A stretch of 64,000 nt of DNA from an uncultured bacterium (GTDB lineage: Bacteria > Patescibacteriota > Minisyncoccia > UBA6257 > 2-01-FULL-56-20), in the NCBI GenBank assembly GCA_963844965.1, contig CAWJQC010000004.1, forward strand, positions 41,609-105,608, written 5' to 3'. This document shows, in pieces, positions 8,028-46,367 of the stretch. Position 1 is the stretch's first letter, and each line of letters opens with the position of its first letter. A program made the position numbers and the translations under genes. The notes below the pieces were generated by a model. The model ran no database searches and was not told the DNA's origin. It was given only the letters and a program-made list of their open reading frames with translations.

Positions 8028-9906
8028 TTAAACGGTCCCTCGGGGTGACGCGCGGAACGCAGCCTCAACATCCAGGTCCTCCCAGCCGGCTTTCTTCAAT
8101 TCGCCGCGAATCACGTCGTCCACAAACGCGGCGGCGCGGGCGGCCCTGATATATTCCACGAGCTCCGGATTCTGGGAACCGGCTTGGGTTGATTTCACTT
8201 CCGCGGCCGGAGAAGCGGCGGTTGCGGCGTCCGCGCTAACTTGCCGCGCGGCTTCAGGGTTCGCCGCTGAAGCCGCTGAATTGTTTTTCTCCGCTTCTTC
8301 CCGCGTCGCCTCATGTTTTATAAGTTCTTTCTCTTCCGTCTCCAGCTTCACTATTTCCTCCTCCTCTTTTTTCATCCGCTTGCGAAGCATGACTACGACA
8401 AACGCCGCTATTATCAGAACCAACACTCCGCCGCCCGCGATAAGCCACGCGGTGAGTCCGACTCCGCTCAGCCGCTCCTTTATGACATCCCATGGCGTAT
8501 CAAGCGACCCGCCCGCGGCGATAAGCGCCGCGCACTGCTCTATATACGGGTCAGCGTATTTGTTTACGGAGAATTTCGCGTCGGAATTCTCGGCTATCTT
8601 GAATTGCTCCGTCGCTTTCTTGCACTGCTTGGCGTGCAGAAGCGCGAGACCCTGTTCCATTGAATCGGTGAAGCCGCTTGTATCGTTTTTCAGCGACTGT
8701 GCGTCAAGCGCGGCTTTCGCCAGTTCAACCGGAACGGCGGATGCGAAATTATCCCCTAAAATGTCGCTGAGCCCCGATTCAAATGTCACCAAACCAATGA
8801 CCTCTCCGTCAGCTCCGAAGAGCGGCCCTCCGCTTGAACCTTCGGAGATCTTCGCGTCCGATTGCAATATTTTGAAATCCTTATTTTGGGAATCTTTGAT
8901 GGCGGTTATCACTCCCTGTGTGAACGTCGGCTCAAGATAATCTTGCGACCCGATACTGGGCCGTACCCGGAAAGCCAAACACGTAAATTTTCTGGCCGAC
9001 AGCGGCCAACGCCGAAGCGCCGAGCTTCATGGCCGCGAGGTTACTTTCGCCAATCTTAAGAATAGCGACGTCCTTGTCGTCAAGGTTGTAGTTATCATTC
9101 ACGCTCAAAACCGTTGCCGGAAACGAATCTTTGATAAGTTCGGTGAGTTTTTGTTTCGTTGATGTCGGATTCAGCACGACGACCTCCCGCAAGATGTCAA
9201 AGCGGCTGTTGGCTTCCAGGGCGGATAAAATTTTCTTTCCATATTCTTCTCCCATGCTTTCCGCATCCAGCGAGTCAATCCCTTTATCTTTATAATACTT
9301 TTCCAAGTCCTGTATTTCATTCGGTTTCAAGGAGAACATTTCTTTGAATATCACCGACGTCATAGCCGCGCCGAGTATCGCCTGCCGCATGGTCTCTTCC
9401 GAAACAACATGGGAGTTTGTGAGGACCAGGCCGGATGGATTCACGACGAAACCGCTGCCCGCGAGATACTGCTCCGTGGAAGTGCCGTTAACGGCGCCTG
9501 ATTTCGGAAACGACACGGCAAACGTTCGGAGGTCAATGCTAAAATCGGGCACCGTTGAGGTTACCAGGAAATGCGTGAGCACCCGAACAATGGACGGCTT
9601 CGTTATGTCCGCCAATTCCTCTTCGCTCATCGCGAGCGGCTGCGGCGTGGGCATGCTCCAAAGATCGGAGAGCGACGCCGTCCCCGATCTCCCACCGCCG
9701 GGCAAACTGCGGAGAGCAACGGCGCCCAAAAACGCCGTGCTCACAAAAAGCGCGACCAAAAACAAAAAGAGCGGTAGCCATATCCGTCCACCTTCCCTAC
9801 CGTTGCCGATAAATGGCATGTATAAATTATAACAAACCCGGAATGAGCCTGGCACTTCACGACAACTTAAACGTGGGTCTGAATTAACTCGTTCAAATCC
9901 AGCCAA
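8028..9906 (-). CDS. trypsin-like (S1C/HtrA-like) serine protease with a C-terminal TM segment, split by one frameshift near 8950-8965
   Basis: The upstream ORF carries the His and Asp regions (GSGFVVNPSGLVLTNSHVV, DVAILKI). The downstream ORF carries the Ser motif (SEGSSGGPLF). The frames join at ...IYVFGFPG / SIGSQDYLEPTFTQGVI. Confidence 0.7.
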
Positions 9907-16755: not shown

Positions 16756-17215
16756 TCACTCTATCTTAGTAATCTGGTATACAATCTGTCCCGCCGGCGC
16801 GTTAACGGTCACGCTGTCGCCGACTTTCCTGCCGATGAACGCTCTGCCGAGCGGCGATTCGTCGGAAATCTTTCCTTCCTCCGGCTTCGCTTCATAAGAA
16901 CCGACTATCGTGTAACGCGCAATCTGATTCTCCTTTCTTGGCGAAAACCGTGGAGCAGACGCCAACTTTCTCCGCTCCTTCTGTCTTCTTTATAATCACC
17001 GCTTTTTTCAGAAGTTCCTCCAGATCAAAAATCCGCGTCTCAACGAGCGCCTGCTCTTCCCTCGCCTCCGCGTACTCGGAATTTTCCGAAAGGTCGCCGT
17101 ATTCCTTCGCGTGACGCAAACGCTCCGCGATTTCCGCGCGTTTCGTATTTTTCAGAACGTCAAGTTCCTGCTTCAATTCCTCAAGACGTTCTTTTGTTAA
17201 GTAATATCTGTCCAC
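16756..17215 (-). CDS. greA: transcription elongation factor GreA, split by one frameshift near 16930-16940
   Basis: The N-terminal coiled coil (EYGDLSENSEYAEAREEQ) is in one ORF. The C-terminal domain (ARYTIVGSYEAKPEEGKISDESPLGRAFIGRKVGD) is in the next frame. Removing one A from gccaagAAAgg restores ...FAKKENQIARYTIVG. Confidence 0.85.
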
Positions 17216-27229: not shown

Positions 27230-27599
27230 TTATACAATTTCTTCGGCCATCGTCATTAATTTTTCAAAACCTTTTTCCTTGAGCTCGCGCGGTAAAGGAC
27301 CGAAGATCCTGGTCGCTATCGGTTCCTTCTTGGCGTCAATCAGCACAACCGCGTTCTCGTCAAAACGCACGTAAGAACCATCCAAACGCCTTATGGGACT
27401 CTTTCGTGCGCACGATGAGCACCCGGACGATGTCCTTTTTCTTCACGGTTTTTCTGGGCTCGGCGACCTGAACGGAGGTCACGATAACGTCACCCACACC
27501 TCCATATCTCCTGCGCGTTGCTCCCAAAATTCTAAAGCAACGGACGATTTTCGCGCCGGAATTATCAGCAACCTTTAAAATACTCCTTTCTTGTATCAT
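27230..27599 (-). CDS. rplN: 50S ribosomal protein L14, split by one frameshift near 27390-27400
   Basis: [26 protein letters not shown]...VRTK continues in another frame as [19 protein letters not shown]...[28 protein letters not shown]. Confidence 0.88.
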
Positions 27600-28144: not shown

Positions 28145-28148
28145 ATCG

Positions 28149-28560
28149 TTATTTACTAATGACCTTGCTTTTGAACGGCAGTTTATATCCGGCGAGGCGC
28201 AGGGCTTCCTTTGCCATATCCCCGTCCACGCCGTCTATTTCAAATATAACCCGACCGGGCTTCACGGGGAATACGTAGTGGTCAACGCTTCCTTTCCCGC
28301 CGCCCATGGTGGTTTCCGGCGGCCGCATGGTGACCGGCTTATCCGGGAAAACGCGTATCCAGAGCCGGCCGCTGCGCTTCAAGTGATTCGTAATGGTTTT
28401 CCTCGCAGCTTCAATCTGCTTGGAATTCAACCACGACGGCTCAAGCGCCTTCAGACCGTACTCGCCGTAATTCAACCCCAAACCGCGCGTTTCCACCGGC
28501 GCGCTTGCGCGACCTGCCCTTTTGCCACTTCCTATGTTTTACTTTTTTGGGAATCAACAT
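28149..28560 (-). CDS. rplP: 50S ribosomal protein L16, split by one frameshift near 28490-28500
   Basis: The ATG at 28560 gives [22 protein letters not shown], then the frame changes to [20 protein letters not shown]...[13 protein letters not shown]. Confidence 0.88.
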
Positions 28561-32564: not shown

Positions 32565-32570
32565 AACTTA

Positions 32571-32600: not shown

Positions 32601-32664
32601 TCCGGCTGTCCTTGTGAAAACGTTCTTAATTATTGTCCAGAACGTCCATTAAAGAGACAAGCTA

Positions 32665-32693
32665 ATACTACGCCGGAATGCCTGGAACGTCAA
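32665..32693 (-). promoter_or_regulatory. sigma70-like promoter for the rplC operon
   Basis: The minus strand reads TTGACG, a 17 nt spacer, then TAGTAT, about 100 nt upstream of the rplC ATG and just downstream of the island terminator. Confidence 0.5.
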
Positions 32694-32756
32694 TAGCACC
32701 CCCTCCACAAGCAAAATCGGCCTGATTTTGCCGCCTTGCCTTCTAAAATGTCGGTA

Positions 32757-32792
32757 AAATAAAAAGCCGGGCCGTTAGAACTTCAGCCCGGC
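32757..32792 (-). terminator. intrinsic terminator after the 367-aa island gene
   Basis: The minus strand reads GCCGGGCtgaagttctaacgGCCCGGCTTTTTATTTT. Confidence 0.7.
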
Positions 32793-32799
32793 AACTTGC

Positions 32800-33879
32800 T
32801 CACCGAAGAATGAAACGTCCCGGTTTGCTTGAGTAATCAGAGAAGAAATTCGCATACGGGAAACGCAGAACACCATAGCCGTGCGTCACGCTTTTTGAGA
32901 CGAACGCGGGCCTTTCTCGTTTCCATCGCTCATACTCTTCTTCCTTGAACAGCACGACGCGTAGCGGATTGCGCGATTCATCAATAACGGCAGGAAGAGC
33001 AAACTCCCAAAACGCCATGTCGTCCTGTTCGTCGCGCGTGAAGAGCGAACGAACGTCGGCGATATCGCCTTCGGCCCAGAACGCGAATCCGCCGCAGGAA
33101 GTCAAATATATTCTCTCCAACTCTTTCGGCCGAATACCCTCCAACTTCAACAAATCAAATCTGTTACAAACAGCCAAAGGCTTTAACCGAGAATAGTAAA
33201 AAAGTTGTCGCGCTTCCTTTCTTACACATTTGGCAAATATGTCCTCGATGTAGGCGGCGAGGAACGGGAGCTCGTGACTAATGTCGGCATCAAAACAGTT
33301 GACCGAATGTTCAACCGGCAGGGCGTATTTCCAAATGCTCGGAATCGTTTCTTGGAGAATGGCAAGTGTGTCCGGCACCGACCCGCCGATAGTACTGAGA
33401 GAATTGAGGCCGGGAACCGTTTCGCCGTGTATGAAGTGCCGGTGGCAAACCGACACATACCGGAGATATATACCCATGCCGTCGCTGTGCATGAATTCCA
33501 GAAGACGCAGGGTTTTTTCCGGCGCGAACATAACGAGCACGCATTTCTTCGTTTTCTCAATCGGCACCGTTTCGCCGGGCAGTACGTGCCCTTTATCCCC
33601 GAGCGCGCGGAGAAGTTCTTCGGCGGCTTCATCGCAACCGTCACGCCGGAGCTGGGCATAAAAATCGGCGAGAACGCGCGCATCGCTGAAAAGTCCGTTA
33701 AGTTCGTTCAAAAACGCGGTTGGGGTGTCGGCTTTATCGGCGATATTTGCCAACGTTTCCGTCATAAATCCGAGTTTGCCGCGCCTTCGCCCAAACACTT
33801 TATGGCCGGCGAGTTTCTGAAATAACCGGTCAAATTGCTGTCCACGAAGAACCGTCTTTCCTTCAGGCACCTGTTTCAT
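32800..33879 (-). CDS. hypothetical cytoplasmic protein (359 aa), first gene of the rpsJ-rplC island counted from the rplC side
   Basis: An intact long ORF. GGAGG lies 6 nt before the ATG (MKQVPEGKTVL...). No signal peptide or TM segment, and no family I recognise. Confidence 0.55.
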   Translation of the reverse strand: MKQVPEGKTVLRGQQFDRLFQKLAGHKVFGRRRGKLGFMTETLANIADKADTPTAFLNELNGLFSDARVLADFYAQLRRDGCDEAAEELLRALGDKGHVLPGETVPIEKTKKCVLVMFAPEKTLRLLEFMHSDGMGIYLRYVSVCHRHFIHGETVPGLNSLSTIGGSVPDTLAILQETIPSIWKYALPVEHSVNCFDADISHELPFLAAYIEDIFAKCVRKEARQLFYYSRLKPLAVCNRFDLLKLEGIRPKELERIYLTSCGGFAFWAEGDIADVRSLFTRDEQDDMAFWEFALPAVIDESRNPLRVVLFKEEEYERWKRERPAFVSKSVTHGYGVLRFPYANFFSDYSSKPGRFILR

Positions 33880-34082
33880 GGGAACCTCCTTGTTCCGAAA
33901 CACATCTGAAGCAACACTTCCTGGGAAATGCCTATTCGTCTGCCTTTCAGCAGACCGTCTCCTGGGAAACGTGGATTAGCGCATTTTCAAAGAACATGCA
34001 CCGAACAAATCATAAGCAATGCGGACTTCTAAGTCAAGCGCATCGTAGATGCGGCCGACACCGAAAATCTTCCGTTCCCAAT

Positions 34083-35000
34083 TTACTGTGCCACCATAAG
34101 CGTCCTCCTTATTGAGTCAAACTGATTAAGCAATGCCGTGCGGTCAAATTCATGGACAACGCCAGGCGGATAGTTATAAATATCCGTGGAGTGTATGAGA
34201 TAGCGCACCGCGAGGCAGGGATTTGTGCCGGGAACGGCCCAGACTTGTTCTTCGTAAAAATTGCCCGCCGCCCCTTCGGTCGTCGTAGCAACGGAATACT
34301 CCGCGCCGCCGTCGGTCACATTCTCTGCGACCAGATTTTGCCGGTCAAGAAAAGGAAGCGCGCTGCAATCCTTTATGTTCGGAGTTTCTTCAACCGACAC
34401 GCCCGTGTCGTAGTGTGAAAGATTGGTACCGGTCGCCATCGCGGCGGGAATAACAAATTTGACGCCGCTGATATCCTTGCCCGGGCCGAGTTCCTGATAC
34501 TTATACGAAGCGTCAACGGAGTAGCCCACGGGATAACGTATGGAAAAACCCGCCGTTCCGCTTGCGTAAGTTTGCGGCAAACCGCCCGAGTCTGGCGCAA
34601 GCACAATACAGCCAACGTAATTTTTCTCTTCGTTATTCTCAAAAACGAGCGCGCCGTTGCCCTTGCCCCAGAAAACGAACGACTCGTCACTGTTGGCGTA
34701 ACGTATTCCGTCCGCCGATATTGTTTGCGGCAAAGTGAATCTGCGCCCGTCGCTTAAAACCAAGGCAACGCTCCCACCGGGAACCGGCGGCTCGCCGGGC
34801 TTTACGGGCGGCGGAGTTCCCTTGTAAAAACTTGCGTCAATCGTCTTTCCGCCATTGCACAGATAGGTAACTTCATTGATAGGCGCGGGCGCCGCGGACT
34901 TTTCCGGCGCGCCGCGGCGGGCGTACCAAAACCACACGCCAAAAAACACCAAGATGACCGCGAGCACCGCAAACAATATTTTAATATTCCTAAATTCCAT
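34083..35000 (-). CDS. membrane-anchored protein with an N-terminal MliC-like (lysozyme-inhibitor fold) domain and an unknown C-terminal domain
   Basis: The start MEFRNIKILFAVLAVILVFFGVWFW forms a TM helix. It is followed by TYLCNGGKTIDASFYKG...VALVLSDGRRFTLPQTISADGIRYANSDESFVFWGKGNGALVFEN, which matches the MliC pattern (C..G......v.l..dg....L.q..SasG.rY......w.kG). Confidence 0.5.
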   Translation of the reverse strand: MEFRNIKILFAVLAVILVFFGVWFWYARRGAPEKSAAPAPINEVTYLCNGGKTIDASFYKGTPPPVKPGEPPVPGGSVALVLSDGRRFTLPQTISADGIRYANSDESFVFWGKGNGALVFENNEEKNYVGCIVLAPDSGGLPQTYASGTAGFSIRYPVGYSVDASYKYQELGPGKDISGVKFVIPAAMATGTNLSHYDTGVSVEETPNIKDCSALPFLDRQNLVAENVTDGGAEYSVATTTEGAAGNFYEEQVWAVPGTNPCLAVRYLIHSTDIYNYPPGVVHEFDRTALLNQFDSIRRTLMVAQ

Positions 35001-35098
35001 GATTTTAGTTTTTAGAAACGCCCGATCCGATAAGCACAGGTGGCACTCTGTGGAGATAGCGAGAGGCACCAGTTGCAACTTCGCCAAACCAACCGCCG

Positions 35099-35410
35099 TC
35101 AGCTGTAAGCCAAAATGATAAACACAATCGCGACGATTACGACGAGGAACGTAATGGTTGCCGCAACAAGATTTATCGCTTCCCTTTTTTTGCCGTTAAA
35201 GTACCAAAGAATCGGCCGGCCGAAGATAACAATGCCCATTACAGCCGCGGAAATCACAAAAACAAGAAGAAACGCCGAGACGACCAGCACCCCGCCCCCG
35301 GGACCGAAAACGTGGTTCGCGTTTGAAATCAAAAGAGCGACGAGCCCCACGTAGGCCGCGGCGGCAAGCGCGTTAAGCAAGCCGTAGCCGATTATTCGTT
35401 TTGTTTTCAT
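35099..35410 (-). CDS. small integral membrane protein (3 predicted TM helices)
   Basis: 103 aa, almost entirely hydrophobic helices. Confidence 0.5.
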   Translation of the reverse strand: MKTKRIIGYGLLNALAAAAYVGLVALLISNANHVFGPGGGVLVVSAFLLVFVISAAVMGIVIFGRPILWYFNGKKREAINLVAATITFLVVIVAIVFIILAYS

Positions 35411-35422
35411 TGTATAGAAATA

Positions 35423-36814
35423 TTACTGCTGGCATGCCTGGCCCGTCAGCCACGGTCCACTCGTGGCGTTGGGATCGTATGGCACGAGCGGCACTACGCA
35501 CGACCAGGAAAGGCCAGTGGATTTGAGCACGATTTTGCTATCGCTTCGGTCCGTTATTACGCTACGCAGTCCGATGGTAATTGTCGGGTCAACGCCGGAA
35601 ATGCCCATGCGGTGCACCCCCAATATTTCAATCGGGAGCATTCTCTGGGTGGTTGGTCCTAATGGGAAGGAAAACGGAACGTTAATGTTCTCTCCGCTGT
35701 GCGTGAAGGGAATAGATGGGTCAGCCGCCAGATTTTCCAGGTGATAATCGGTTGACGGATCATCAGCTACGCGCAAAACCAGCGGCGAATCGGCGACATT
35801 CAAAGCCGTGTAAGAAATATCAACGTTTAGTCCGGTAATCGTAATCTGGTTGGAATCTATATTGTTGAAAACAAGACCACCATTGTCCGTACTTTCCTGA
35901 AGCACGGTGCTCATGGCCGACGGCGAAGTGACGATCAGTTGGCCGGGGTCGGTCGTAAAGGAAAAATTTTTGGACTGAACCCGCTGGTCGTTTCCGGAAG
36001 TCTGAGCCAAACCGATGGCACAAGCGTATGAAGTTCTCACATCGAACATCGGATTTTGGTCGGTATCGTCGGAAGACGGGATATTCGGCGGCGGATTGCA
36101 GGAGAACGAAACGAAAAAACGCGGCACCGAACCGCTGCCGCCGATGGAAGTTTCGTCCAAACCCCATATTACACTGCTTTTTGTGCCTGCGAACGTGGTA
36201 AATTTTGCTTCGTATGGGCCGTCAAACCGTTCGTTCAAAGAAAGCGTGGTGGCGTCCAAAAACGTCCGCGCCGTAATTACCGCCGGGACGGAAGCGGCGG
36301 CTGTTGTCGGGGTCGTAGCGGATTTTGCCTGCGCTCCGGCCTTTTTACTTGTAGTTTTCCCACCGGACTGGGTGGTCGCGGCGGCCGTCGTGGCGGTCGT
36401 TGTGGAAAACGGCACATCCACGCTTGGCAATAGTCCCGCCACAATCTCCGTCTGTGCATCCAAACTCGCGACGCTTGAGGTGGCAACGCTTGAAGTAGCC
36501 GTGGAAGTTGAGAACGCAATAACACTTTGCATCATGGCAATCTCTTTCGGGACGCCTACTGCCATGCCCAGGCGTGCCTGCATGCCCATAACTTCAATCG
36601 TCTGTTTATAGGAAACAATTTCCGTCAAAGTTTTCGCCGCGAAAACTCCTCCGAAGAGGATTGCCGCGAGCCCGACAAGAAAAGGAACTCTCGTGCTGAA
36701 CAACTTCAAGATTTTTCCGGAGATATTTCCGCCGCCCAAAAAAATGGCCTTGAAGCCGCCGGGTCTGGCGGGCTTTTCACGGCGCACAATATCTTGTACG
36801 CGCCTGTTATTCAT
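35423..36814 (-). CDS. hypothetical secreted/anchored protein with a Thr/Ser/Ala-rich linker
   Basis: 463 aa. It has an N-terminal TM helix (VPFLVGLAAILFGGVFAA), low-complexity SSVATSSVAS..TTTATTAAATTQ, then a beta-rich C-terminal region. Confidence 0.5.
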   Translation of the reverse strand: MNNRRVQDIVRREKPARPGGFKAIFLGGGNISGKILKLFSTRVPFLVGLAAILFGGVFAAKTLTEIVSYKQTIEVMGMQARLGMAVGVPKEIAMMQSVIAFSTSTATSSVATSSVASLDAQTEIVAGLLPSVDVPFSTTTATTAAATTQSGGKTTSKKAGAQAKSATTPTTAAASVPAVITARTFLDATTLSLNERFDGPYEAKFTTFAGTKSSVIWGLDETSIGGSGSVPRFFVSFSCNPPPNIPSSDDTDQNPMFDVRTSYACAIGLAQTSGNDQRVQSKNFSFTTDPGQLIVTSPSAMSTVLQESTDNGGLVFNNIDSNQITITGLNVDISYTALNVADSPLVLRVADDPSTDYHLENLAADPSIPFTHSGENINVPFSFPLGPTTQRMLPIEILGVHRMGISGVDPTITIGLRSVITDRSDSKIVLKSTGLSWSCVVPLVPYDPNATSGPWLTGQACQQ

Positions 36815-37023
36815 TTGACGTATTGTTATATATTACCTCAGGACGCGTGGGGATTCAAACGTAGGCAAAATCGCAGTTTTGTTGCGGCAGGGCAAATCAC
36901 CCGGAGCGCTGAAGGATTAAAAAACAAAGCCGCAACCACGACTGTTCACTTTTTATGAACAATCATTTTATCGCTTGTTAAAAATTGAAACTGCCGACCG
37001 TGGATACAAAAATCTTTCAAAAG

Positions 37024-37064
37024 CCCGAAAAGAAAACACCCCGAAAACGAATTGGCTTTCGGGG
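37024..37064 (-). terminator. intrinsic terminator
   Basis: The minus strand reads CCCCGAAAgccaattcgTTTTCGGGGTGTTTTCTTTT. Confidence 0.65.
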
Positions 37065-37109
37065 CGACTTGTTAGAAAAAAACAGGAGTCAGGATTCTAT
37101 TCTCTGGTT

Positions 37110-37554
37110 TCAATTGAGGCCCGTTGCGGCAAGAAGTGTGCGGCGAATCACCGAATCGTGTCCCATCTCATTGTATGTGGCCGCCTCTATACGCCTCTCC
37201 AAAACAGCAGGAAGCCCAAGTATTTCTTTCTTGACCTCCCGTTCGGCAGAGCTCGCCACACCTTCCGTAATCATCGCGTATACCGCAGTCAACGGATAGT
37301 AGTCATTTTCCGCGGTGATGATGACACCGAGCGGCGTCAGCTTCCATCGGTGGGGTCTTTGCGCAGATACTCAAGAATACGCTGTAGTCGTAGATATCGC
37401 GCCCCAACAGTGCGCCGAAGAACAGCAACAAAACACCCTGAATTCCTACGACCACGTGATGACCTTGTATTTGATCTTTTGAAAAAAGAGCGAAAGCGGT
37501 GCATATTCCACCAAACACCAGCAGCACGACAAGCGATGGCTTAGCGCCCTTCAT
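37110..37554 (-). CDS. hypothetical membrane protein, probably one gene split by a frameshift near 37290-37330
   Basis: The 83-aa ORF (2 TM helices) ends where a second frame stays open (..KLTPLGVIITAENDYYPLTAVYAMITEGVASSAEREVKK..) and runs on to 37110. Confidence 0.35.
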
Positions 37555-37826
37555 ATACCCCCCCTTCCTCTTTTTTATCTTTGGCCTATCCAGCTGGCCT
37601 CAACCTAACACAGCGAAAGTTATTAGTCAAATGCGGCGGCTTTTTATAACTTGCGCGCTGATCACGGCAAAAATCTGCCGCCGGCCGGGAATGCGGGGGT
37701 TTAAACGAGGTCCAGCTGGTCCTCGGCCACAGGGTTTTAGAAAACCAATTCAAAACTGCCCTTTCCTGCGCTTCGCCGAAGGCTTCGGCAAGGCGAGCGG
37801 GCGGTGGTGAAAAAAATTACCTAGTT

Positions 37827-38174
37827 CTATTTGCCGTCGGCGCTGCTGGCCGGAAACTCGGAAGACGCGTCTCCGTCGTTCATCCATTGCCAAATTTCGG
37901 CTCGGCGCTTTTCGGCGCCGGGAAACACGTCATCGGGTATGGCAATACGCCGCAATTCTTCTTCGGTCAAGCTGCTGAGGTTAACCGACGAGGGGTCTTT
38001 GCCTAAAAGAGATTTGAGCGTTTTAAGGCTCGCTTTTATCCGTTTCGGGGCGAGAGCGTCCTTATTCCACAACTCTGAATCTTTTCTAATTGCGTCCAAA
38101 TTTTCGTGCGCCAGGGCGATCCTGTCGTTCCTGGAGAGTTCGTTCCCGCCAATCTTATCTGCAGGTTCTGGCAT
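37827..38174 (-). CDS. hypothetical protein
   Basis: A 115 aa ORF directly downstream of the rpsJ terminator. No family recognised. Confidence 0.4.
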   Translation of the reverse strand: MPEPADKIGGNELSRNDRIALAHENLDAIRKDSELWNKDALAPKRIKASLKTLKSLLGKDPSSVNLSSLTEEELRRIAIPDDVFPGAEKRRAEIWQWMNDGDASSEFPASSADGK

Positions 38175-38232
38175 AAATTTATATTACAACAATTTAATTT
38201 CTAAGTCCAAGCCCTGAATTAACAGAGAAATT

Positions 38233-38255
38233 CAAAACCGCCTTTTCGGGCGGCT
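38233..38255 (-). terminator. intrinsic terminator after rpsJ
   Basis: The minus strand reads GCCGCCCGAAAAGGCGGTTTTGAATTT, preceded by GCGCGGAACTACGCGGAATTACGCAGAAAC word repeats. Confidence 0.65.
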
Positions 38256-38287
38256 TTGTTTCTGCGTAATTCCGCGTAGTTCCGCGC

Positions 38288-38618
38288 TTAGACCATTTTG
38301 ATTTCCACATCTACGCCAGCCGGTAAATTCAGATTGCTCAGCGATTCCACGATTTTCTGACTGGGATTCAGTATTTCCACGAGGCGCTTGTGGACGCGGA
38401 GCTCAAACTGCTCGCGCGAGTCCTTGTGGACGAATGTTGAACGATTTACGGTGTAGCGCTTAATCTCGGTCGGCAGCGGAATCGGCCCTACGATGCGCGC
38501 GTCCTGCCTCTCGGCGGCTTCAATAATTTGCCGCGCCGAATTATCAATCAGCTTGTGATCTGTATGACTTGATTCTCAGCCTGATTTTTTGCGGAAGGTC
38601 CGCTACTTTTTTGGCCAT
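38288..38618 (-). CDS. rpsJ: 30S ribosomal protein S10, interrupted by a +1 base near 38558-38565
   Basis: [19 protein letters not shown] then a stop. Deleting one base in tcatacAgatcac restores [63 protein letters not shown]...VDVEIKMV*. Confidence 0.88.
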
Positions 38619-38627
38619 TATTTTTTC

Positions 38628-38948
38628 CTATTGAGGGAATTCATCCGGATGTTCGTCCTCGTATTTTTCAAGAAGTCCGTTGTACAGATTTATATCCCTT
38701 TCGAGTTTGGAGCAGGATTCAAGCTCCCAGTGCCCGATATCCCCTTGACGGGACGCCGCTGGCTCGCCACTTCCGCAAATTGGCTCTCTAATCGCTTAAC
38801 CAGGGCTTTCAGTTTTTCGTAGTCCTCGTGATTTTGAGGCGGATTTTTCAACCAGCTCCTGTTGTCAAAGTTAGTTTCTTTTTCCTCACCAAGCTAATTT
38901 TGGATTCACTGCGATTTTTTTCACCCATATTATTTCAGTATCTTAGTC
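38628..38948 (-). CDS. hypothetical ~106 aa protein inserted between tuf and rpsJ (two compensating frameshifts)
   Basis: Three consecutive frame pieces read [17 protein letters not shown].. / [44 protein letters not shown] / [35 protein letters not shown]. The start lies 1 nt after the tuf stop. Confidence 0.35.
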
Positions 38949-38949
38949 A

Positions 38950-40132
38950 CCGCTCCTGCGCCGACCGTCTTGCCGCCTTCGCGGATGGCAAAACGCTGTT
39001 TTTCTTCAAGCGCGACCGGGAAATGAGTTTCACGGTGAGTTTAACGGTGTCGCCCGGCATGACCATTTCCATGCCTGCCGGCAAGGGTCACTTCGCCCGT
39101 AACATCGGTCGTCCTGATATAGAACTGCGGCTTGTAGCCGTTGAAGAACGGCGAGTGGCGGCCGCCTTCCTCTTTTGAAAGCACGTAAACCTCGCGCTCG
39201 AATTCCGTGTGCGGCGTGACGCTGCCCGGCTTCGCGACAACCTGCCCGCGCTCCACGTCTTCTTTCTTCAGGCCGCGGAGCAGAACGCCGACGTTGTCGC
39301 CCGCCATGCCTTCGTCCAAGAGTCTTATTGAACATTTCAATGCCCGTGACGACGGTCTTCTGCCGTCGGCCTGCAGGCCGACGATCTCCACTTCTTCGTT
39401 CACTTTCACCTTGCCGCGCTCCACGCGGCCGGTCACGACCGTGCCGCGTCCTTCAATCGAGAAGATGTCTTCGATCGGCATAAGGAACGGCTTGTCGAAG
39501 TCGCGGACCGGATCGGGAATGAATGTCATCCACCGCTTTGATAAGGTCCAAGATCGGTTTCGCGTCCGGGTCGTCGGCGATTTCGCGGCCAACGCTTTCA
39601 AAGCCGAACCGCGGATGATCGGAGTCGTGTCGCCCGGGAATTCGTATTTCTTCAAAAGCTCGCGGACTTCGGACTCAACGAGATCAATGAGTTCCGGATC
39701 GTCCACCTGATCGCACTTATTAAGAAACACGACGATGGTCGGCACGCCGACCTGGCGGGCAAGCAAAATGTGCTCGCGCGTCTGCGGCATCGGGCCGTCG
39801 GTCGCGGCGACGACCAAAATCGCGCCGTCCATCTGCGCGGCGCCCGTGATCATGTTCTTGATATAGTCGGCGTGTCCCGGCGCGTCAATGTGCGCGTAGT
39901 GGCGCTTCTCGGATTCGTACTCCGAATGGTGCAGGGCGATCGTGATGCCGCGCGCCTTTTCCTCCGGAGCGTTGTCAATTTGGTCCACTCTCTCTTCTTT
40001 CTTCGTCAGACCCTTCAAATGCAAAACGTGCATAATCGCGGCGGTCAGGGTCGTCTTGCCGTGGTCAACGTGGCCGATCGTGCCGATGTTCATGTGCGGC
40101 TTGGCCCGGTAGAATTTTTCTTTTTCAGCCAT
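38950..40132 (-). CDS. tuf: elongation factor Tu, with four apparent single-base indels
   Basis: The N-terminus is canonical ([53 protein letters not shown]). A compensating pair near 39515-39527 and 39585-39600 scrambles [21 protein letters not shown]. Two more, near 39075-39085 and 39015-39020, break the C-terminus (..[20 protein letters not shown] / [29 protein letters not shown]). Confidence 0.88.
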
Positions 40133-40256
40133 GGTTTTATTATTTTATTTTTATTTATTTTTTTAGTGAGAACCTGGCCTGATGGATATCGCGTATGAAA
40201 AGCCCCAAACCAATCGACCGGGGCCGCGAACACATCATCGGACCTTATAATGCTAG

Positions 40257-40286
40257 ATTATATACCATTCCCCCAACTGCTGTCAA
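40257..40286 (-). promoter_or_regulatory. near-consensus sigma70 promoter upstream of tuf
   Basis: The minus strand reads TTGACA, an 18 nt spacer, then TATAAT, about 125 nt upstream of the tuf ATG. Confidence 0.6.
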
Positions 40287-40443
40287 TTGCCATTGTGGAA
40301 TGATTGTGGACGGCGAAAGGGGGCAGGATTTGGACAAATCATAGATAGATAGCATGAATTAATTTATTACTTATTAACGGATTAACGAATTGCGAATTGA
40401 ATCCGATGCGTTAATACGTTAATTCGTTAATTTTAATAGAATA

Positions 40444-40486
40444 AAAAACCCGCCGACGCTTACACCTAACGCGCGGCGGGCTCGTT
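40444..40486 (-). terminator. intrinsic terminator after the 40493..41296 gene
   Basis: The minus strand reads CCCGCCGcgcgttaggtgtaagcgtCGGCGGGTTTTTTAT. Confidence 0.7.
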
Positions 40487-40492
40487 CAAGAC

Positions 40493-41296
40493 TCATTTCC
40501 CTAGAGCGGAAAACGCCTCGTTGCCGGGATACTTTCTATGAAGGTAATCGTGGATATTAGCTTTGTCATCTGCGGTATATTGGCAGGCGTTTTTCTTGTC
40601 CGTGATTATCTTCAAAATCACGAACCAAACGTCGTCGGCGTACATACCGCCGTCCAGAGCCACCGATTCGAATATTAATTCCCGGCCGCGATAGTCGTTG
40701 TTCGGAATGCCGAACAGTGTTGTCACCACGGGATGCGACGACGCCCTATAGTTCGTAAGGCCGAGAAGGAATTTCGCGCCACGGTACTTTGAGGCGGAAG
40801 CGACGGCAACGGCGGACTGCAAGGTGTTTTTTGCCGCCCACCACGAGCCGCAGCCATACAACAGAACTGCCTTGGTATATAGAAGATTCGCCTCTACATA
40901 CTGATAAAAATCAATCTGCTTGCCGTTTCCTATTTTCTTATCAGCCTTGTTGATGCCCACATCAAGCAGCTTGAAAAAATCCGCGCGCGGGCCGTCCTCC
41001 AATTTAGGCGCGTCCTTTTTTTGTTCGTGCCGAAGCCGGAAAAGCCAGCTCAAAGATAGCCGCAGTTCACCGACGGGATCGTCCGGCTCCATTTCCGCGT
41101 ATTTTCTGAACTTGGCGTCGGCGCAGTTATAATCGCTGTTGTAAAAACAATTCAGGCCCGCCTCAAGCACAGCACGGCTCTCGGGCCTCATCTCACGGTC
41201 CGAGATAGAATCCGCAGAAAAAACCGGGGCAGCCGAACCCGAGAAGAGACACACCGACATAAAAAAGATGAGCATCCTCGTTCTCTTCGCGCCCAT
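40493..41296 (-). CDS. hypothetical secreted protein inserted between fusA and tuf
   Basis: 267 aa with signal peptide MLIFFMSVCLFSGSAAPVFSA. It has its own terminator. No family recognised. Confidence 0.5.
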   Translation of the reverse strand: MGAKRTRMLIFFMSVCLFSGSAAPVFSADSISDREMRPESRAVLEAGLNCFYNSDYNCADAKFRKYAEMEPDDPVGELRLSLSWLFRLRHEQKKDAPKLEDGPRADFFKLLDVGINKADKKIGNGKQIDFYQYVEANLLYTKAVLLYGCGSWWAAKNTLQSAVAVASASKYRGAKFLLGLTNYRASSHPVVTTLFGIPNNDYRGRELIFESVALDGGMYADDVWFVILKIITDKKNACQYTADDKANIHDYLHRKYPGNEAFSALGK

Positions 41297-41436
41297 TTTT
41301 CTCCTTTCAACGGCAAAATTTCAACGCAAGCCCATCAGCTACGAAGCATTATACGGAAATACTTCATAAAAGTCAAACAAATTGCCAAATTGCCCCGAGG
41401 GCGCAAGAGAACGCGACCAGGATCTCCGGCAAAAAA

Positions 41437-43541
41437 TTACCGTTTTTTGCCTTCGATAATCAACTGCGCAATGTTCTGCGGCACTGGCTCATAATGGTCA
41501 AATTCCATCGTGAACGCTCCCCTGCCTTGCGTCATGGAACGCAACTCGGTCGCGTAGCCGAACATTTCCGCGAGCGGAACTTTGGCGTCAATCACTTTCA
41601 CGTTGGGCCGGTCGGAAATTTCCTCAATCCTGCCGCGCTTGGAGTTCAAGTTGCCGCTCACCTCGCCCAAAAATTCTATCGGGATGATAACCTGAAGCTT
41701 CATTATCGGCTCCAATATGACCGGCTTCGCGCGCTTCGCCGCTTCCTGCAGGGCGATGGAGCCAGCAATTTTGAAAGCCGCCTCCGACGAGTCAACTTCA
41801 TGGAAAGAGCCGTCATAGAGCGAAACTTCAAGGTCGGTCATCGGGTAGTGGGCAACGACCCCCTTACTCAATGCTTCCACCACACCTTTTTCCACCGCCG
41901 GGATGAATTCGTTCGGAATGATCCCTCCCTGATATCGTCTATGAAAACAAATCCCTTGCCGCGCTCCAAGGACTTCACGCGCAGCCAGACATGTCCGTAT
42001 TGTCCGCGGCCGCCGGATTGCCTGATATATTTGCCTTCCGCCTCCGCTTCGCCCATAATCGTTTCTTTATAGGCAACCTGCGGCCGCCCCACCGAACCCT
42101 CAACACCGAACTCCCGCTTCATCCTGTCAACAATAATTTCCAGGTGCAACTCGCCCATGCCAGAAATAATCGTCTCGCCAGTTTCCAGGTCGCCCGCCAC
42201 GCGGAAAGTCGGGTCTTCTTCCGCCAAGCGGTGCAGGGCAATGCTCATTTTTTCCTGGTCGGCTTTCGTCTTCGGCTCAATGCGAATGCCGATCACCGGC
42301 TCGGGGAATATGATCTTCTCAAGCACTATCGGCGCGTCGGGACTGCAAAGCGTGTCGCCGGTCGTCGTATTCTTCAAACCGACGATCGCCGCGATATCTC
42401 CGGCATGCACTTCCTCCATTTCTTCGCGGTGGTTGGCGTGCATCCGCACCACGCGGCCGACACGTTCCTGCTGGTCCTTCTTGGAATTCAAAACGTACGT
42501 GCCGCGCTTCAAAACGCCGGAATAATTCCGGAAATAGGTTAAAGTGCCGACGTACGGGTCTGTCGCAACCTTGAAAGCCAGCGCCGAGAACGGCTCTTCG
42601 TCCTTGGGGTGCCGCACGATATCGGCGCCGCTCTTCGGGTCAATGCCCTTAACCGGAGGAAGGTCCGTCGGCGCGGGCAAATATTCCACAACCGAGTCAA
42701 GCATAAATTGCACGCCTTTGTTTTTCAGGGCCGAACCGCAAAGCACCGGCACAATTTTGTTGGCAATAACGGCTTTGCGCAAAACGCGGCGCAAATCTTC
42801 AATGTCAAGCTCAGTACCATCCAAATACTTGGTCATCAAGGCATCGTCATTGTCCACAATGCGTTCCACAAGTTCATGCCGCGCCTTCTTCACGTGCACT
42901 TTCATATTTTCCGGCATCGGAATTTCTGTAATCTTTTCGCCATGTTCACCCTCCGAGCCGTACGCCTTTTCGGTTAAGAGGTCTATCATTCCCACGAATT
43001 CACCCTCAAGGCCGATGTTCAACTGCAAAGGCAGTGCGTTCGGCGTGAGCCGTTCTTTGATTGACTGCAAACTTTTTTCAAAGCTCGCACCCAAGCGGTC
43101 AAGTTTGTTAATAAAGCAAATCCGCGGCACGTGGTACTCATCGGCATAGCGCCAGTTCGTTTCCGACTGCGGCTCAACACCTGCGACGCCATCAAAGACG
43201 ACAACCGCGCCGTCCAAAACGCGGAGCGAACGCTTCACCTCCACCGTAAAGTCAATGTGCCCCGGCGTGTCAATCAAATTTATCATATGCTCAAATTTTT
43301 TGTCGCCCTTGCGGTAAGTCGGAATCCAGAACGCCGTCGTTGCGGCGGAAGTAATCGTAATTCCCCTCTCACGTTCCTGCTCCATCCAATCCATCACCGT
43401 GTCGCCCGTGTGCACCTCGCCGATTTTGTGACTGACGCCCGTATAAAAAAGCACCCGTTCGCTCACGGTGGTTTTGCCGGCATCTATATGGGCGATGATG
43501 CCGATGTTACGGACCTTCTCGACAGGATACATTCTAGGCAT
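41437..43541 (-). CDS. fusA: elongation factor G, split by one frameshift near 41920-41933
   Basis: [35 protein letters not shown]. At ..FIDDIR the frame slips; adding one G in atcaGGGaGGGatc restores [30 protein letters not shown], which joins the two track ORFs. Confidence 0.9.
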
Positions 43542-43695
43542 TGAATTTGAATAAACTTATTTTAATTCTCGCGCATATTGATGCGGGAAAGGGGTCGGGA
43601 AAACGGGAGTTTTCCCGTATAGGAAAAAGGCCGGAGGCCGAGTTAAAAACCGAGAGGTTTTTAAGGAGCGGGTTGCTGTATAGCGACTCGCGACC

Positions 43696-43755
43696 GTCTA
43701 TATGCGCGATTATTCCTATATTTCTTACTTTTTCTACTGGATATTGTCGCGGCAT
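43696..43755 (-). pseudogene. orphan copy of the first 20 codons of fusA
   Basis: [20 protein letters not shown] versus the resident [20 protein letters not shown]. The amino acids are nearly identical but almost every third codon position differs. It lies 8 nt after the stop of the inserted ORF and ~155 nt upstream of the real fusA start. Confidence 0.7.
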
Positions 43756-43763
43756 AAAATAAA

Positions 43764-44150
43764 TTATTTATCTTCTTCAACTTCCGGCAAACCTGTTCCG
43801 CCTCTCACCCCTTGGCCGCCGCTCTCCACGTAAGACATGGTGACATCGAATGCGTTCCGGAGATAAGGAATTTTGGCGGGACTGCTGTTGCCTTCCTCTA
43901 TCTCCGACCAGCTAATTTTGCCTTTTTCCAAAAGAGCGCTCAGAACTTCTATTTTTGATTTGGTGCCGAAATCCAAAACCGTTTCCGGTGGTGCATAAGC
44001 GATGTTTTTACCCTGCCGAAGCGCTTCCAATTCGTGGCGTTTCGCTCGTTCCTTATATTCTTCCAATTTTAATCGCAATTGCTTTACGCGCCGTCCGTCA
44101 GTAGGCAAAACTATCTCTAAACCACTTTTTTCGGCTTCCGGACCTTTCAT
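43764..44150 (-). CDS. hypothetical protein inserted between rpsG and fusA
   Basis: 128 aa and charged (LRLKLEEYKERAKRHELEALRQGK...). It is flanked tightly by the rpsG-3' and fusA-5' remnants. Confidence 0.5.
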   Translation of the reverse strand: MKGPEAEKSGLEIVLPTDGRRVKQLRLKLEEYKERAKRHELEALRQGKNIAYAPPETVLDFGTKSKIEVLSALLEKGKISWSEIEEGNSSPAKIPYLRNAFDVTMSYVESGGQGVRGGTGLPEVEEDK

Positions 44151-44162
44151 CGTGGCAAATAA

Positions 44163-44201
44163 TTACCGGGCGAAGTGCGCGAATGCCCTGTTCGCTTCCG
44201 C
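44163..44201 (-). pseudogene. orphan copy of the last 12 codons plus stop of rpsG
   Basis: gcg gaa gcg aac agg gca ttc gcg cac ttc gcc cgg taa encodes [12 protein letters not shown], identical in protein to the end of the resident rpsG but different at most third positions. It lies 12 nt upstream of the inserted ORF start. Confidence 0.7.
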
Positions 44202-44278
44202 CCCCGCACCAAAGCTACGCTTGGTACGGGACTCCGCCTCTTCTAAATATCTTAAATTAAGGTGGCTACGCATTCTGT

Positions 44279-44746
44279 TTATCTGGCAAAGTGTGCAAAG
44301 GCACGATTAGCCTCAGCCATCCGGTGCATATCTAACTTCTTTTTGATTGCCGCGCCTTCATTCTTGGAAGCGGCAATGATTTCTTCCGCCAATTTGTCGG
44401 CCATGGGCTTGCCTTTGCGGCTGCGCGCAGTGCCGATTATCCAGCGGATTGCCAAAATAAACCTGCGTTCGGGGCGCACTTCAATCGGCACTTGATAGTT
44501 CGCGCCGCCGACCCGCCGCGATTTCACCTCCAATAAAGGCGAGGCGTTTTCAACGGCTTTCTCAAAAACCTTCAGGGAATCTTCTTTCGTGATTTCTTTC
44601 ACTTTATCAAACGCGTCATAGACAATTTTTTCGGCAATTGATTTCTTGCCGTCGCGCATCACGTAATTAATAAAACGCTCCACGTCTATGCGCTCATGCT
44701 TTATGTCCGGCTTGTGATATTTTTTGTAAACTCGTTTTTTGCGCAT
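44279..44746 (-). CDS. rpsG: 30S ribosomal protein S7
   Basis: [22 protein letters not shown]...[23 protein letters not shown]...[13 protein letters not shown]. Confidence 0.95.
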
Positions 44747-44760
44747 TGTTACATATGGTT

Positions 44761-44817
44761 GTCATTCCGAGCTTTGCGAGGAATCTCATGAGATCCTTCA
44801 CTTCGCTCAGGATGATG
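44761..44817. repeat. palindromic GTCATTCCGAGC...GCTCAGGATGA element (REP/MITE-like) between rpsL and rpsG
   Basis: GTCATTCCGAGCtttGCGAGGAATCTCATGAGATCCTTCacTTCGCTCAGGATGAT is an imperfect hairpin. A related half-copy (GATTCTTCGCATGGCTCAGAATGAC) occurs at ~21995..22020. Confidence 0.55.
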
Positions 44818-44829
44818 CTCTGCGGAGCG

Positions 44830-45240
44830 TCATTTCGGCCGCTTTACACCGTATTTACTGCGCTGCTGTTTCCTGTTATCCACTCCGGTCGTGTCCAAAA
44901 TTCCGCGGATAACGTGGTAGCGCACGCCCGGCAAGTCCTTCACGCGGCCGCCGCGCACGAGAACGATGGAGTGCTCCTGCAGGGTGTGGCCTTCGCCGGG
45001 AATATAAGCCGTGATTTCCATGCCGTTCGTGAGACGGACGCGCGCGACTTTGCGCAGAGCCGAGTTCGGTTTCTTCGGCGTTGTCGTGAAAACCTTGAGG
45101 CAAACGCCGCGCTTGAACGGTGAGCCGGAATCCACCGGCCGATTCTTCAGCGTGTTGAAATAATAAGACAGCGCCGGCGCCTTGGTCTTTGCTTTAAGCG
45201 GCTTCCTTCCTTTTTTAATTAGTTGACGGATTGTCGGCAT
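44830..45240 (-). CDS. rpsL: 30S ribosomal protein S12
   Basis: [12 protein letters not shown]...[22 protein letters not shown]...[15 protein letters not shown]. Confidence 0.95.
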
Positions 45241-46221: not shown

Positions 46222-46294
46222 GTCCCTGTAGCTCAACGGATAGAGCGTGTGGCTTCGAACCACAAGGTTGCAGGTTCAAATCCTGCCAGGGACG
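46222..46294 (+). tRNA. tRNA-Arg (anticodon TCG)
   Basis: GTCCCTGTAGCTCAACGGATAGAGCGTGTGGCTTCGAACCACAAGGTTGCAGGTTCAAATCCTGCCAGGGACG, with loop CTTCGAA. It is bracketed by the perfect inverted repeat CCCTCCCACCTTTG / CAAAGGTGGGAGGG. Confidence 0.9.
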
Positions 46295-46321
46295 CAAAGG
46301 TGGGAGGGTGAAGATATCATA

Positions 46322-46367
46322 TGTGGCTTCGAACCACAGGTTCCAGGTTCGAGTCCTGGCGAGGGCA
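46322..46367 (+). pseudogene. 3' fragment of a different tRNA-Arg(TCG) (anticodon arm to acceptor 3' strand)
   Basis: TGTGGCTTCGAACCACA is identical to the anticodon arm of the neighbouring gene. It is followed by a different T-arm (CCAGGTTCGAGTCCTGG) and acceptor strand (CGAGGGC). There is no 5' acceptor or D-arm. Confidence 0.7.

What the first reader, a model, noticed from the sequence alone, without database searches (positions are those of the whole stretch)
38288..43541. Dense cluster of single-base frameshifts in tuf (4), fusA (1), rpsJ (1) and the tuf-rpsJ ORF (2)
Conserved peptide continuity lets each break be located to a few bases:
- rpsJ: ~38558-38565
- tuf: ~39015-39020, ~39075-39085, ~39515-39527 and ~39585-39600. 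The last two compensate each other and scramble ~25 residues.
- fusA: 41920-41933, a G-run

That is eight indels in ~3.7 kb of essential, single-function genes, whereas dnaE (3.2 kb), recG (2.7 kb) and lysS are intact.

Most likely these are consensus errors where highly conserved genes from co-occurring strains were merged, or a low-quality stretch. True pseudogenisation of tuf, fusA and rpsJ together is implausible unless functional copies exist elsewhere. Any downstream analysis of these genes should correct them first.
Basis: partly seen in the sequence, partly recalled or inferred. Interest (0 to 1): 0.5.

Follow-up and report, generated by a model that had tools for sequence, protein, structure and literature searches.

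The report
Sequencing-consensus frameshifts concentrated in tuf
The broken reading frames in the elongation-factor and ribosomal-protein genes of this uncultured (Patescibacteria) genome are almost certainly single-base errors of the assembled consensus, extraordinarily dense in tuf, and not gene decay; they should be repaired before the genes are used.

Summary
The frameshifts are really in the sequence. The count and the contrast with the rest of the window need correcting.

- tuf has seven 1-nt indels, not four.
- fusA has one and rpsJ has one.
- The two claimed in the tuf-rpsJ spacer ORF cannot be verified, because the ORF is an orphan.
- At least four more frameshifts lie outside the flagged region: rplP 28499, rplN ~27400, greA ~16930 and a trypsin-like protease ~8950.

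The contig therefore carries about one detectable indel per 10 kb, against 5.8 per kb in tuf (Poisson P ~5e-11).

Undoing the seven tuf indels gives a 399-aa EF-Tu, the same length as nearly all of the 120 best database hits. It keeps 224 of 224 invariant residues. Its dN/dS is 0.05, equal to that between intact relatives, so there is no sign of decay.

An independent assembly of the same population (Logan, run ERR10755942) lacks the rplP insertion. A Nanopore-only relative (MFD01476) shows the same pattern in tuf, fusA and rpsJ, whereas 44 of 58 relatives have an intact tuf.

Homopolymer content does not explain the hot spot. Most insertions look like two alternative alleles of a polymorphic column written side by side, which fits reads from related populations merged at a very conserved gene.

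Verdict: an artefact of low biological interest, but of practical importance for marker-gene analyses.

The parts
38930..40132 (-). tuf (EF-Tu) with seven 1-nt indels. As written it gives a 363-aa ORF (39041-40132) with two scrambled stretches and a premature TAA. Repaired, it is 399 aa.
   Evidence: The repaired protein is 94% identical to Liptonbacteria EF-Tu P0001 over 100% of its length.
39578..39583 (-). tuf indel 1: one base missing (aaatc-gcc; Ser codon TCN or the A run).
   Evidence: DNA alignments with L081, L082 and 12 other relatives.
39524..39525 (-). tuf indel 2: one extra base (gac[a]ttc). It restores the frame 55 nt after indel 1.
   Evidence: Relatives carry A, T or C at this third codon position.
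39363..39371 (-). tuf indels 3 and 4: two extra G (cag[g]ccgacg[g]cag). Removing them gives QPTQKT, matching KPTQKT in L082.
39322..39324 (-). tuf indel 5: one extra base (aag[a]ctc). Together with indels 3 and 4 the net change is +3.
Evidence: Relatives have A, C or T at the adjacent first codon position.
39082..39087 (-). tuf indel 6: one extra base (acc[c]ttg). The shifted frame runs into TAA at 39041-39043.
39017..39021 (-). tuf indel 7: one base missing in a C run (tttc-ccgg). It returns to the original frame.
38288..38618 (-). rpsJ (S10) with one extra base at 38561 (tac[a]gat).
38619..38929 (-). tuf-rpsJ spacer. Three overlapping open frames could form one ~100-aa orphan ORF with two frameshifts; this is unverified.
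   Evidence: three-frame translation; no homologues. L082 has an unrelated-looking 70-aa ORF at the same place.
41437..43541 (-). fusA (EF-G), split into 557-aa and 152-aa ORFs by one missing G at 41923-41929. Repaired, it is 701 aa.
28499..28499 (-). rplP (L16): an extra C (gcgcg[c]cgg). It is absent from the independent Logan contig L085, where L16 reads through.
27398..27402 (-). rplN (L14): one extra base (gag[t]ccc).
   Evidence: Contig L085 ends at 27402.
16924..16939 (-). greA: a frameshift between the N-terminal and C-terminal domains, probably one extra A in aagaaagg.
   Evidence: Pfam GreA_GreB_N and GreA_GreB fall in different frames. Sequence.
8940..8975 (-). Trypsin-like protease: the Trypsin_2 domain is split across two frames.
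   Evidence: Profile positions 39-93 lie in ORF 8935-9909 and 86-144 in ORF 8031-9026. Sequence.

Best explanation
The frameshifts are errors of the assembled consensus, not mutations carried by the organism.

**Background errors.** The contig is a 216-kb NCBI/ENA contig of a Paceibacteria/Liptonbacteria-like MAG. It carries scattered single-base indels at roughly one detectable per 10 kb, as long-read-only assemblies of low-coverage genomes do.

**The tuf hot spot (inferred).** In tuf the density is about 50 times higher. The most likely reason is that tuf is the most conserved gene at the DNA level in the window. Reads, or graph paths, from related co-occurring populations would be pulled into the consensus there. 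Where the populations differ, mostly at third or first codon positions, the consensus either writes both alleles one after the other, giving an insertion, or writes neither, giving a deletion. fusA, rpsJ, rplN and rplP suffer the same effect more mildly.

**Shown**
- The indels and their exact places.
- The absence of any decay signal in tuf.
- The absence of one indel (rplP) from an independent assembly.
- The technology-linked recurrence in a relative.

**Inferred**
- That the assembly is long-read.
- That population mixing, rather than some other local failure, causes the tuf hot spot. I put this sub-mechanism at about 0.55, within about 0.9 for 'artefact' overall.
For: 1. The repaired tuf encodes 399 aa, the length of nearly all of the 120 best hits (119), at up to 94% identity and 100% coverage.
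2. It keeps 224/224 residues that are invariant in 14 relatives. dN/dS is 0.051 and 0.058 against L081 and L082, versus 0.049 between those two. Each of the three lineages has 10 unique amino-acid changes.
3. Logan contig L085 (run ERR10755942) is 99.65% identical to window 27402-28549. It lacks the extra C at 28499 and encodes an uninterrupted L16. Logan contig L083 is 100% identical over 1353 nt, so the same population was sampled independently.
4. L004 is a Nanopore-only MAG assembled with Flye and one round of Medaka (PMC12313526). It has ~12 indels in tuf plus one each in fusA and rpsJ and one more in the ribosomal-protein stretch downstream, at different positions. By contrast, 44 of 58 relatives have an intact tuf.
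5. tuf is a general assembly trouble spot. Ten of 58 contigs end within its first ~100 codons, and three Illumina MAGs have a broken tuf.
6. tuf has no more homopolymers than dnaE or recG, which are intact.
7. All seven tuf indels can be placed at a codon 3|1 junction that is polymorphic among relatives. In 4-5 of the 5 insertions, the inserted base and its neighbour are two alleles seen in relatives.
8. Nanopore consensus indels are a documented cause of frameshifted genes in MAGs, especially below about 40x coverage (PMC9262707).
Against: - No reads were available, so no tuf indel was tested directly.
- L085 differs from the window by 3 SNPs, so it could be a sister strain.
- The tuf indels are frame-restoring in three local groups (P ~0.004), which neither random error nor the mixing model predicts.
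- Sliding-window identity to relatives shows no clear mosaic.
- The sequencing technology of the window's assembly is not known.
- Several indels (gac[a]ttc, tac[a]gat, aag[a]ctc) are not homopolymer errors.
Confidence: 0.85

Rival explanations
1. It is an artefact, but without population mixing. On this view the tuf stretch is simply a locally bad piece of consensus, for example a coverage drop, an unpolished draft segment or a mis-resolved graph bubble, on a contig with ordinary long-read indel noise.
For: - Scattered single indels elsewhere sit in short runs of G, C or A.
- There is no clear mosaic pattern in tuf.
- The technology is unknown.
Against: - The same gene is the hot spot in an independent MAG, L004.
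- The genes hit are the most conserved ones: tuf, fusA, rpsJ, rplN and rplP.
- The insertions look like doubled alleles at polymorphic columns.
- tuf has no excess of homopolymers.
Confidence: 0.25
2. The indels are real. tuf (with fusA, rpsJ and others) is being inactivated in this population, and function is supplied by a second copy elsewhere in the genome or by a host cell.
For: - The indels are in the deposited sequence, and the broken products are the only versions in public protein collections.
- CPR bacteria are reduced episymbionts.
- No intact copy was found in the window.
Against: - Seven indels occur with no accompanying relaxation: dN/dS is 0.05, 224/224 invariant residues are kept, and the three lineages show equal unique changes.
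- The rplP frameshift is absent from an independent assembly.
- Simultaneous loss of EF-Tu, EF-G, S10, L14 and L16 is not viable.
- Short-read relatives are intact.
Confidence: 0.04
3. The shifts are programmed recoding, by ribosomal frameshifting or transcriptional slippage, so that a full EF-Tu is still made.
For: The tuf indels restore the frame in local groups.
Against: - There is no X XXY YYZ heptamer, and no A or T run of 6 or more, in tuf.
- Seven sites of both signs would be needed.
- Relatives have no shift at these places.
- The shifted stretches translate correctly only in the alternative frame.
- A TAA lies in the third shifted stretch.
Confidence: 0.01

Closest known systems
Indel consensus errors of long-read (Nanopore) metagenome assemblies that fragment gene calls
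   Same: - They are single-base insertions and deletions scattered over a contig.
- They produce split ORFs of otherwise perfectly conserved genes.
- They are absent from an independent assembly.
- They also occur in a documented Nanopore-only relative (PMC9262707; PMC12313526).
   Different: - The classic errors are homopolymer contractions spread evenly. Here 7 of 13 sit in one 1.2-kb gene with no long homopolymers.
- Five of the 7 tuf indels are insertions, and several are not in homopolymers.
- The technology of this assembly is not known.
Strain or population collapse in metagenome assembly (chimeric consensus and contig breaks at conserved genes)
   Same: - The genes affected are the most conserved ones.
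- Ten of 58 relatives' contigs break inside tuf.
- The indels coincide with columns that vary among relatives.
   Different: - Collapse usually gives mosaic substitutions or contig ends, not frameshifts.
- No mosaic could be demonstrated here.
- It is not testable without reads.
Genuine pseudogenes of reductive genomes (for example in obligate symbionts)
   Same: Multiple frameshifts and a premature stop in a formerly functional gene.
   Different: - There is no excess of non-synonymous change and no loss of invariant residues.
- The genes concerned are indispensable.
- One such frameshift is absent from an independent assembly.
Programmed frameshift genes (prfB +1, dnaX -1)
   Same: An ORF that needs a frame change to give the full product.
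   Different: - Those have a single conserved site with a slippery sequence, shared by homologues.
- Here there are seven unconserved sites of both signs and no slippery motif.

Membership tests
EF-Tu (tuf) | Full-length similarity to EF-Tu, with GTP_EFTU, D2 and D3 domains and the family's invariant residues. | tested here: met
   After removal of the 7 indels, the protein has 399 aa and is 94% identical, over 100% of its length, to proteins carrying PF00009, PF03144 and PF03143. It keeps 224/224 invariant residues.
Genuine pseudogene | Relaxed selection, seen as raised dN/dS, loss of conserved residues or excess lineage-specific replacements. | tested here: not met
   dN/dS is 0.05, the same as between intact relatives. 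Lineage-unique changes are 10/10/10.
Genuine pseudogene | The disabling mutations are present in independent sequence data from the same population. | tested here: inconclusive
   Only the rplP site could be compared, and the insertion is absent from Logan contig L085. No independent sequence covering tuf, fusA or rpsJ could be retrieved.
Programmed ribosomal frameshift or transcriptional slippage | A slippery heptamer or a long A/T run at the shift site. | tested here: not met
   tuf has no X XXY YYZ heptamer and no A/T run of 6 or more.
Programmed ribosomal frameshift or transcriptional slippage | The shift site is conserved in homologues. | tested here: not met
   Fourteen relatives, including the closest (L081, L082), read through in one frame.
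Long-read consensus indel error | Single-base indels scattered along the contig, not confined to one gene. | tested here: met
   Six indels lie outside tuf, at ~8950, ~16930, ~27400, 28499, 38561 and ~41926.
Long-read consensus indel error | Association with homopolymer runs. | tested here: inconclusive
   fusA (G run), tuf indel 7 (C run), and probably greA (A run) and rplP fit. tac[a]gat, gac[a]ttc and aag[a]ctc do not. tuf has no excess of runs.
Long-read consensus indel error | The assembly was made from error-prone long reads. | not testable with these tools
   The source is only known as a 216,488-bp NCBI/ENA contig without an accession.
Mixed-population (collapsed) consensus | Errors concentrated in the genes most conserved among co-occurring relatives. 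| tested here: met
   The genes hit are tuf (7), fusA, rpsJ, rplN and rplP. L004 shows frameshifts in tuf, fusA, rpsJ and one further ribosomal-protein gene not identified here. There is detection bias, because frameshifts are easiest to see in conserved genes.
Mixed-population (collapsed) consensus | More than one haplotype in the read pile-up at the error sites. | not testable with these tools
   No reads were available. The only indirect hint is that the insertions resemble doubled alleles.

The most novel reading that the evidence does not exclude
The tuf indels are real and very recent. On this reading an episymbiotic Paceibacteria population is in the act of losing its own EF-Tu (and other translation genes), surviving on a second copy or on imported host factors. 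The local frame restoration would then reflect an unknown mutational process, such as templated patch repair, rather than assembly.
Probability: 0.03. Interest if true: 0.75.

Novelty: not a real feature. Interest (0 to 1): 0.12.

Why it matters
Biologically it does not matter much: the organism almost certainly has normal tuf, fusA, rpsJ, rplN and rplP genes.

Practically it does matter.

- These are standard phylogenetic and completeness marker genes.
- The truncated 363-aa EF-Tu and the 557-aa and 152-aa EF-G pieces are already the only versions of these proteins in public collections.
- A second long-read MAG of the same clade shows the same gene-specific damage.

This suggests that long-read assemblies of communities rich in related Patescibacteria systematically corrupt their most conserved genes. 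That would bias marker-based trees, completeness estimates and pseudogene counts unless such genes are re-polished or repaired in a frame-aware way.

Tried and rejected
**Searches that found nothing useful**
1. Exact-protein look-ups, to find the same genome elsewhere. Six were not on record: ORF267, rpsL, dnaE, ORF115, rplX and P0121. Only ORF128/rpsG and rpsQ led to Logan contigs. Neither reaches tuf, fusA or rpsJ.
2. Exact look-up of the repaired RpsJ, RplN (two variants), RplP (two alleles), GreA and EF-Tu. None is in the collection, so this is no independent proof for those genes.
3. A scan of JGI metagenome contigs for the tuf segment around indel 2, with or without the extra base. There were no matches. 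The species seems absent from that collection, as searches also indicate.
4. A HMMER search of the spacer ORF against 1.84 billion representatives. It returned only two weak, low-complexity-like hits, so the two spacer frameshifts stay unverified.

**Explanations tested and rejected**
5. Paralogy between the spacer ORF, ORF128 and ORF115. None was found.
6. Homopolymer or GC content as the cause of the tuf hot spot. Rejected, because tuf has fewer long runs than the intact dnaE and recG.
7. High GC of tuf as a sign of a foreign gene. Rejected by eye, not by a computed GC value: the tuf sequences of the close relatives L081 and L082 look similarly GC-rich in the alignment.
8. A shared fusA frameshift site in the window and L004. 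Rejected, because the sites differ: 41926 versus a 2-nt insertion about 70 nt downstream.

**Inconclusive or negative checks**
9. A mosaic test of tuf by sliding-window identity was inconclusive.
10. Ten further ORFs or ORF fragments near possible gene junctions were checked with Pfam, and no split domain was seen. The pair 56572-57531 / 57365-59017 was checked, had no Pfam hit, and remains undetermined.


Full report
**What the region is**

The window comes from a member of the Patescibacteria (Paceibacteria/Liptonbacteria-like). fusA is at most 78% identical at the protein level to species representatives, and the repaired EF-Tu is 94% identical to a Liptonbacteria protein. The str operon lies on the minus strand:

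| Feature | Coordinates |
|---|---|
| rpsL | 44830-45240 |
| rpsG | 44279-44746 |
| orphan ORF128 | 43764-44150 |
| fusA | 43541 down to 41437 |
| orphan ORF267 | 40493-41296 |
| tuf | 40132 down to 38930 |
| spacer | 310 nt |
| rpsJ | 38618 down to 38288 |

**Checking the observation**

I aligned the window DNA with intact genes of relatives. These were first species representatives, then the two closest tuf-rpsJ loci, L081 and L082, at about 87% DNA identity.

- rpsJ has one extra base at 38561 (tac[a]gat).
- fusA has a single missing G in AGGG-AGGG at 41923-41929 and no other indel in 2.1 kb.
- tuf has seven single-base indels, not four:
  - a deletion at 39578/79;
  - insertions at 39524, 39370/71, 39363/64, 39323 and 39082-87;
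  - a deletion in a C run at 39017-21.

They can be read as two indels only if the true protein had an extra codon. Removing two G and one A gives [18 protein letters not shown], which matches the relatives almost base for base.

The seven indels form three local groups with net changes of 0, +3 and 0, so only 171 nt are out of frame. For random positions and signs this has P ~0.004. The third shifted stretch contains TAA at 39041-39043, which is why the ORF stops at 363 aa.

The two frameshifts claimed in the tuf-rpsJ spacer ORF cannot be verified. Three overlapping open frames tile the spacer, but the piece searched has no homologue.

**The rest of the window is not clean**

- blastx against ORFs of the relatives shows a frame change in rplN at ~27400 and one in rplP near 28500.
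- Pfam shows GreA's N- and C-terminal domains in different frames at ~16930.
- Pfam also shows one Trypsin_2 domain split over two overlapping ORFs at ~8950.
- Ten further ORFs or ORF fragments near possible gene junctions showed no split domain.

There are therefore at least six detectable indels in the 62.8 kb outside tuf, against seven in 1.2 kb of tuf. That is about a 50-fold excess, with Poisson P ~5e-11. dnaE and recG are indeed intact.

**Real mutations or errors?**

Four lines of evidence bear on this.

1. *No decay.* With the seven indels undone, tuf encodes 399 aa, the length of nearly all of the 120 best database hits.
   - It keeps all 224 residues that are invariant in 14 relatives.
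   - Its dN/dS against L081 and L082 is 0.051 and 0.058, against 0.049 between those two intact genes.
   - It has 10 lineage-unique replacements, the same as each of them.
   - Seven real disabling mutations with no trace of relaxed selection is not what a pseudogene looks like.

2. *An independent assembly.* Two contigs assembled by Logan from run ERR10755942 belong to the same population.
   - L083 is 100% identical to window 43589-44941.
   - L085 is 99.65% identical to window 27402-28549.
   - L085 lacks the extra C at 28499, and its L16 reads through in one frame.
   - This is the only frameshift for which independent sequence could be obtained, and there the window is the odd one out.
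   - L085 ends at 27402, just at the rplN frameshift site, so that site could not be judged.

3. *Recurrence linked to technology.* L004 (MFD01476.bin.1.98) comes from a catalogue built with Nanopore-only Flye assemblies and one round of Medaka (PMC12313526).
   - Its tuf carries about twelve indels, at other positions than in the window. There is one frame change each in fusA and rpsJ and one more in the ribosomal-protein stretch downstream.
   - Forty-four of 58 relatives with tuf have it intact.
   - Ten of the 58 contigs end inside the first ~100 codons of tuf, and three Illumina MAGs have a broken tuf.
   - tuf is therefore a general trouble spot for metagenome assembly.

4. *Composition does not explain the hot spot.* tuf has no G/C run of 4 or more and fewer A/T runs than the intact dnaE and recG. 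Its high GC (0.58) looks similar in the closest relatives by eye; no GC value was computed for them.

**Likely mechanism (inference)**

All seven tuf indels can be placed at a junction between a third and a first codon position that varies among relatives. In four or five of the five insertions, the extra base and its neighbour are two alleles seen in relatives at that column. Examples are C and A in gac[a]ttc, A and C in aag[a]ctc, C and T in acc[c]ttg, and G and C in acg[g]cag.

This is what one expects if reads of related populations, which share long stretches of near-identical tuf, are piled up together. The consensus then writes both variants in series, or neither. Long-read consensus indels as a cause of frameshifted genes in low-coverage MAGs are well documented (PMC9262707).

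Two things remain unexplained or unproved. I could not show a mosaic structure in tuf. The frame-restoring grouping of the indels is not explained by this model.

**Rivals**

- A purely local failure without mixing remains possible. It does not explain why the same gene is hit in L004.
- Real pseudogenisation is contradicted by the selection tests and the rplP comparison. It would also mean simultaneous loss of EF-Tu, EF-G, S10, L14 and L16.
- Programmed recoding is excluded. There are no slippery motifs or long A/T runs, the sites are not conserved, and seven shifts of both signs would be needed.
- There is no second tuf, fusA or rpsJ in the window, only a 31-codon fusA 5' fragment.

**Verdict**

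- tuf has seven indels, not four;
- the spacer claims are unverifiable;
- at least four further frameshifts lie elsewhere in the window.

The broken EF-Tu and EF-G fragments are already in public protein collections as the only versions.

Noticed in passing
window 43542-44278 (minus strand); L083; L084 1114-1619: Between the complete rpsG and the complete fusA lies a cassette. It consists of a diverged copy of the last ~14 codons of rpsG (44163-44205, synonymous differences), orphan ORF128, and a diverged copy of the first 20 codons of fusA (43696-43755). About 150 nt follow, containing an inverted AHIDAGK-coding scrap (43564-43581).

The cassette is colinear, at 81% identity and without gaps, with the native rpsG-ORF131-fusA junction of a relative (L084). 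It is reproduced 100% by an independent Logan contig (L083). It therefore looks like a real insertion of a small gene together with its neighbours' gene ends, not a misassembly.
   Followed up: partly
window 60110-60670 and 62130-62691 (minus strand): Two copies, about 98% identical, of a small antitoxin plus RelE/ParE-like toxin module lie 2 kb apart. Copy A carries a 5-nt tandem duplication (GCAAA) that frameshifts the toxin gene. That is a mutation type unlike the single-base indels elsewhere, so it is probably real.
   Followed up: partly
window 46222-46359 (plus strand): tRNA-Arg(TCG) is followed 12 nt later by a partial tRNA (Rfam model positions 9-63, 30 bits). The two share an exact 17-nt repeat, TGTGGCTTCGAACCACA.
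   Followed up: no
window 32568-38287: rpsJ is separated from rplC (32013-32564) by 5.7 kb. This stretch holds three large ORFs (367, 334 and 463 aa) and an ORF-poor stretch at 36,900-37,800. Only the 463-aa ORF was scanned against Pfam, with no match. In relatives L081 and L082, rpsJ is likewise not followed by rplC.
   Followed up: no
loci L003, L023, L051, L060, L066, L069, L071, L074, L075, L078; L014, L036, L073: Ten of 58 relatives' contigs end within the first ~100 codons of tuf. Three short-read MAGs have tuf with an internal gap and a frame change. tuf is a recurrent break point in metagenome assemblies.
   Followed up: partly
L085 end = window 27402: The independent Logan contig stops exactly at the rplN frameshift site (27398-27402). 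This may mark a polymorphism or graph branch at that spot.
   Followed up: no
window 28217, 28399, 28471: There are three substitutions between the window and Logan contig L085. All are A in the window against C, G, G in L085, and all are non-synonymous in rplP (L/M, R/K, S/N). They could be strain differences or further consensus errors.
   Followed up: partly
window 56572-59017 (minus strand): Two ORFs of 550 and 319 aa overlap by 167 nt in different frames. They have no Pfam match, so they could be another frameshifted gene, but this could not be tested.
   Followed up: partly
window 1493-1902 (minus strand): The RNase P RNA (bacterial class A) scores 100.2 bits against a gathering score of 100, so it only just passes.
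   Followed up: no
L081 2340-4563: In the closest relative, tuf-rpsJ is followed by a reverse transcriptase (RVT_1) and an RNase H/RVT_3/zinc-ribbon protein. The window itself has an RNase H/RVT_3 ORF at 3163-3591.
   Followed up: no
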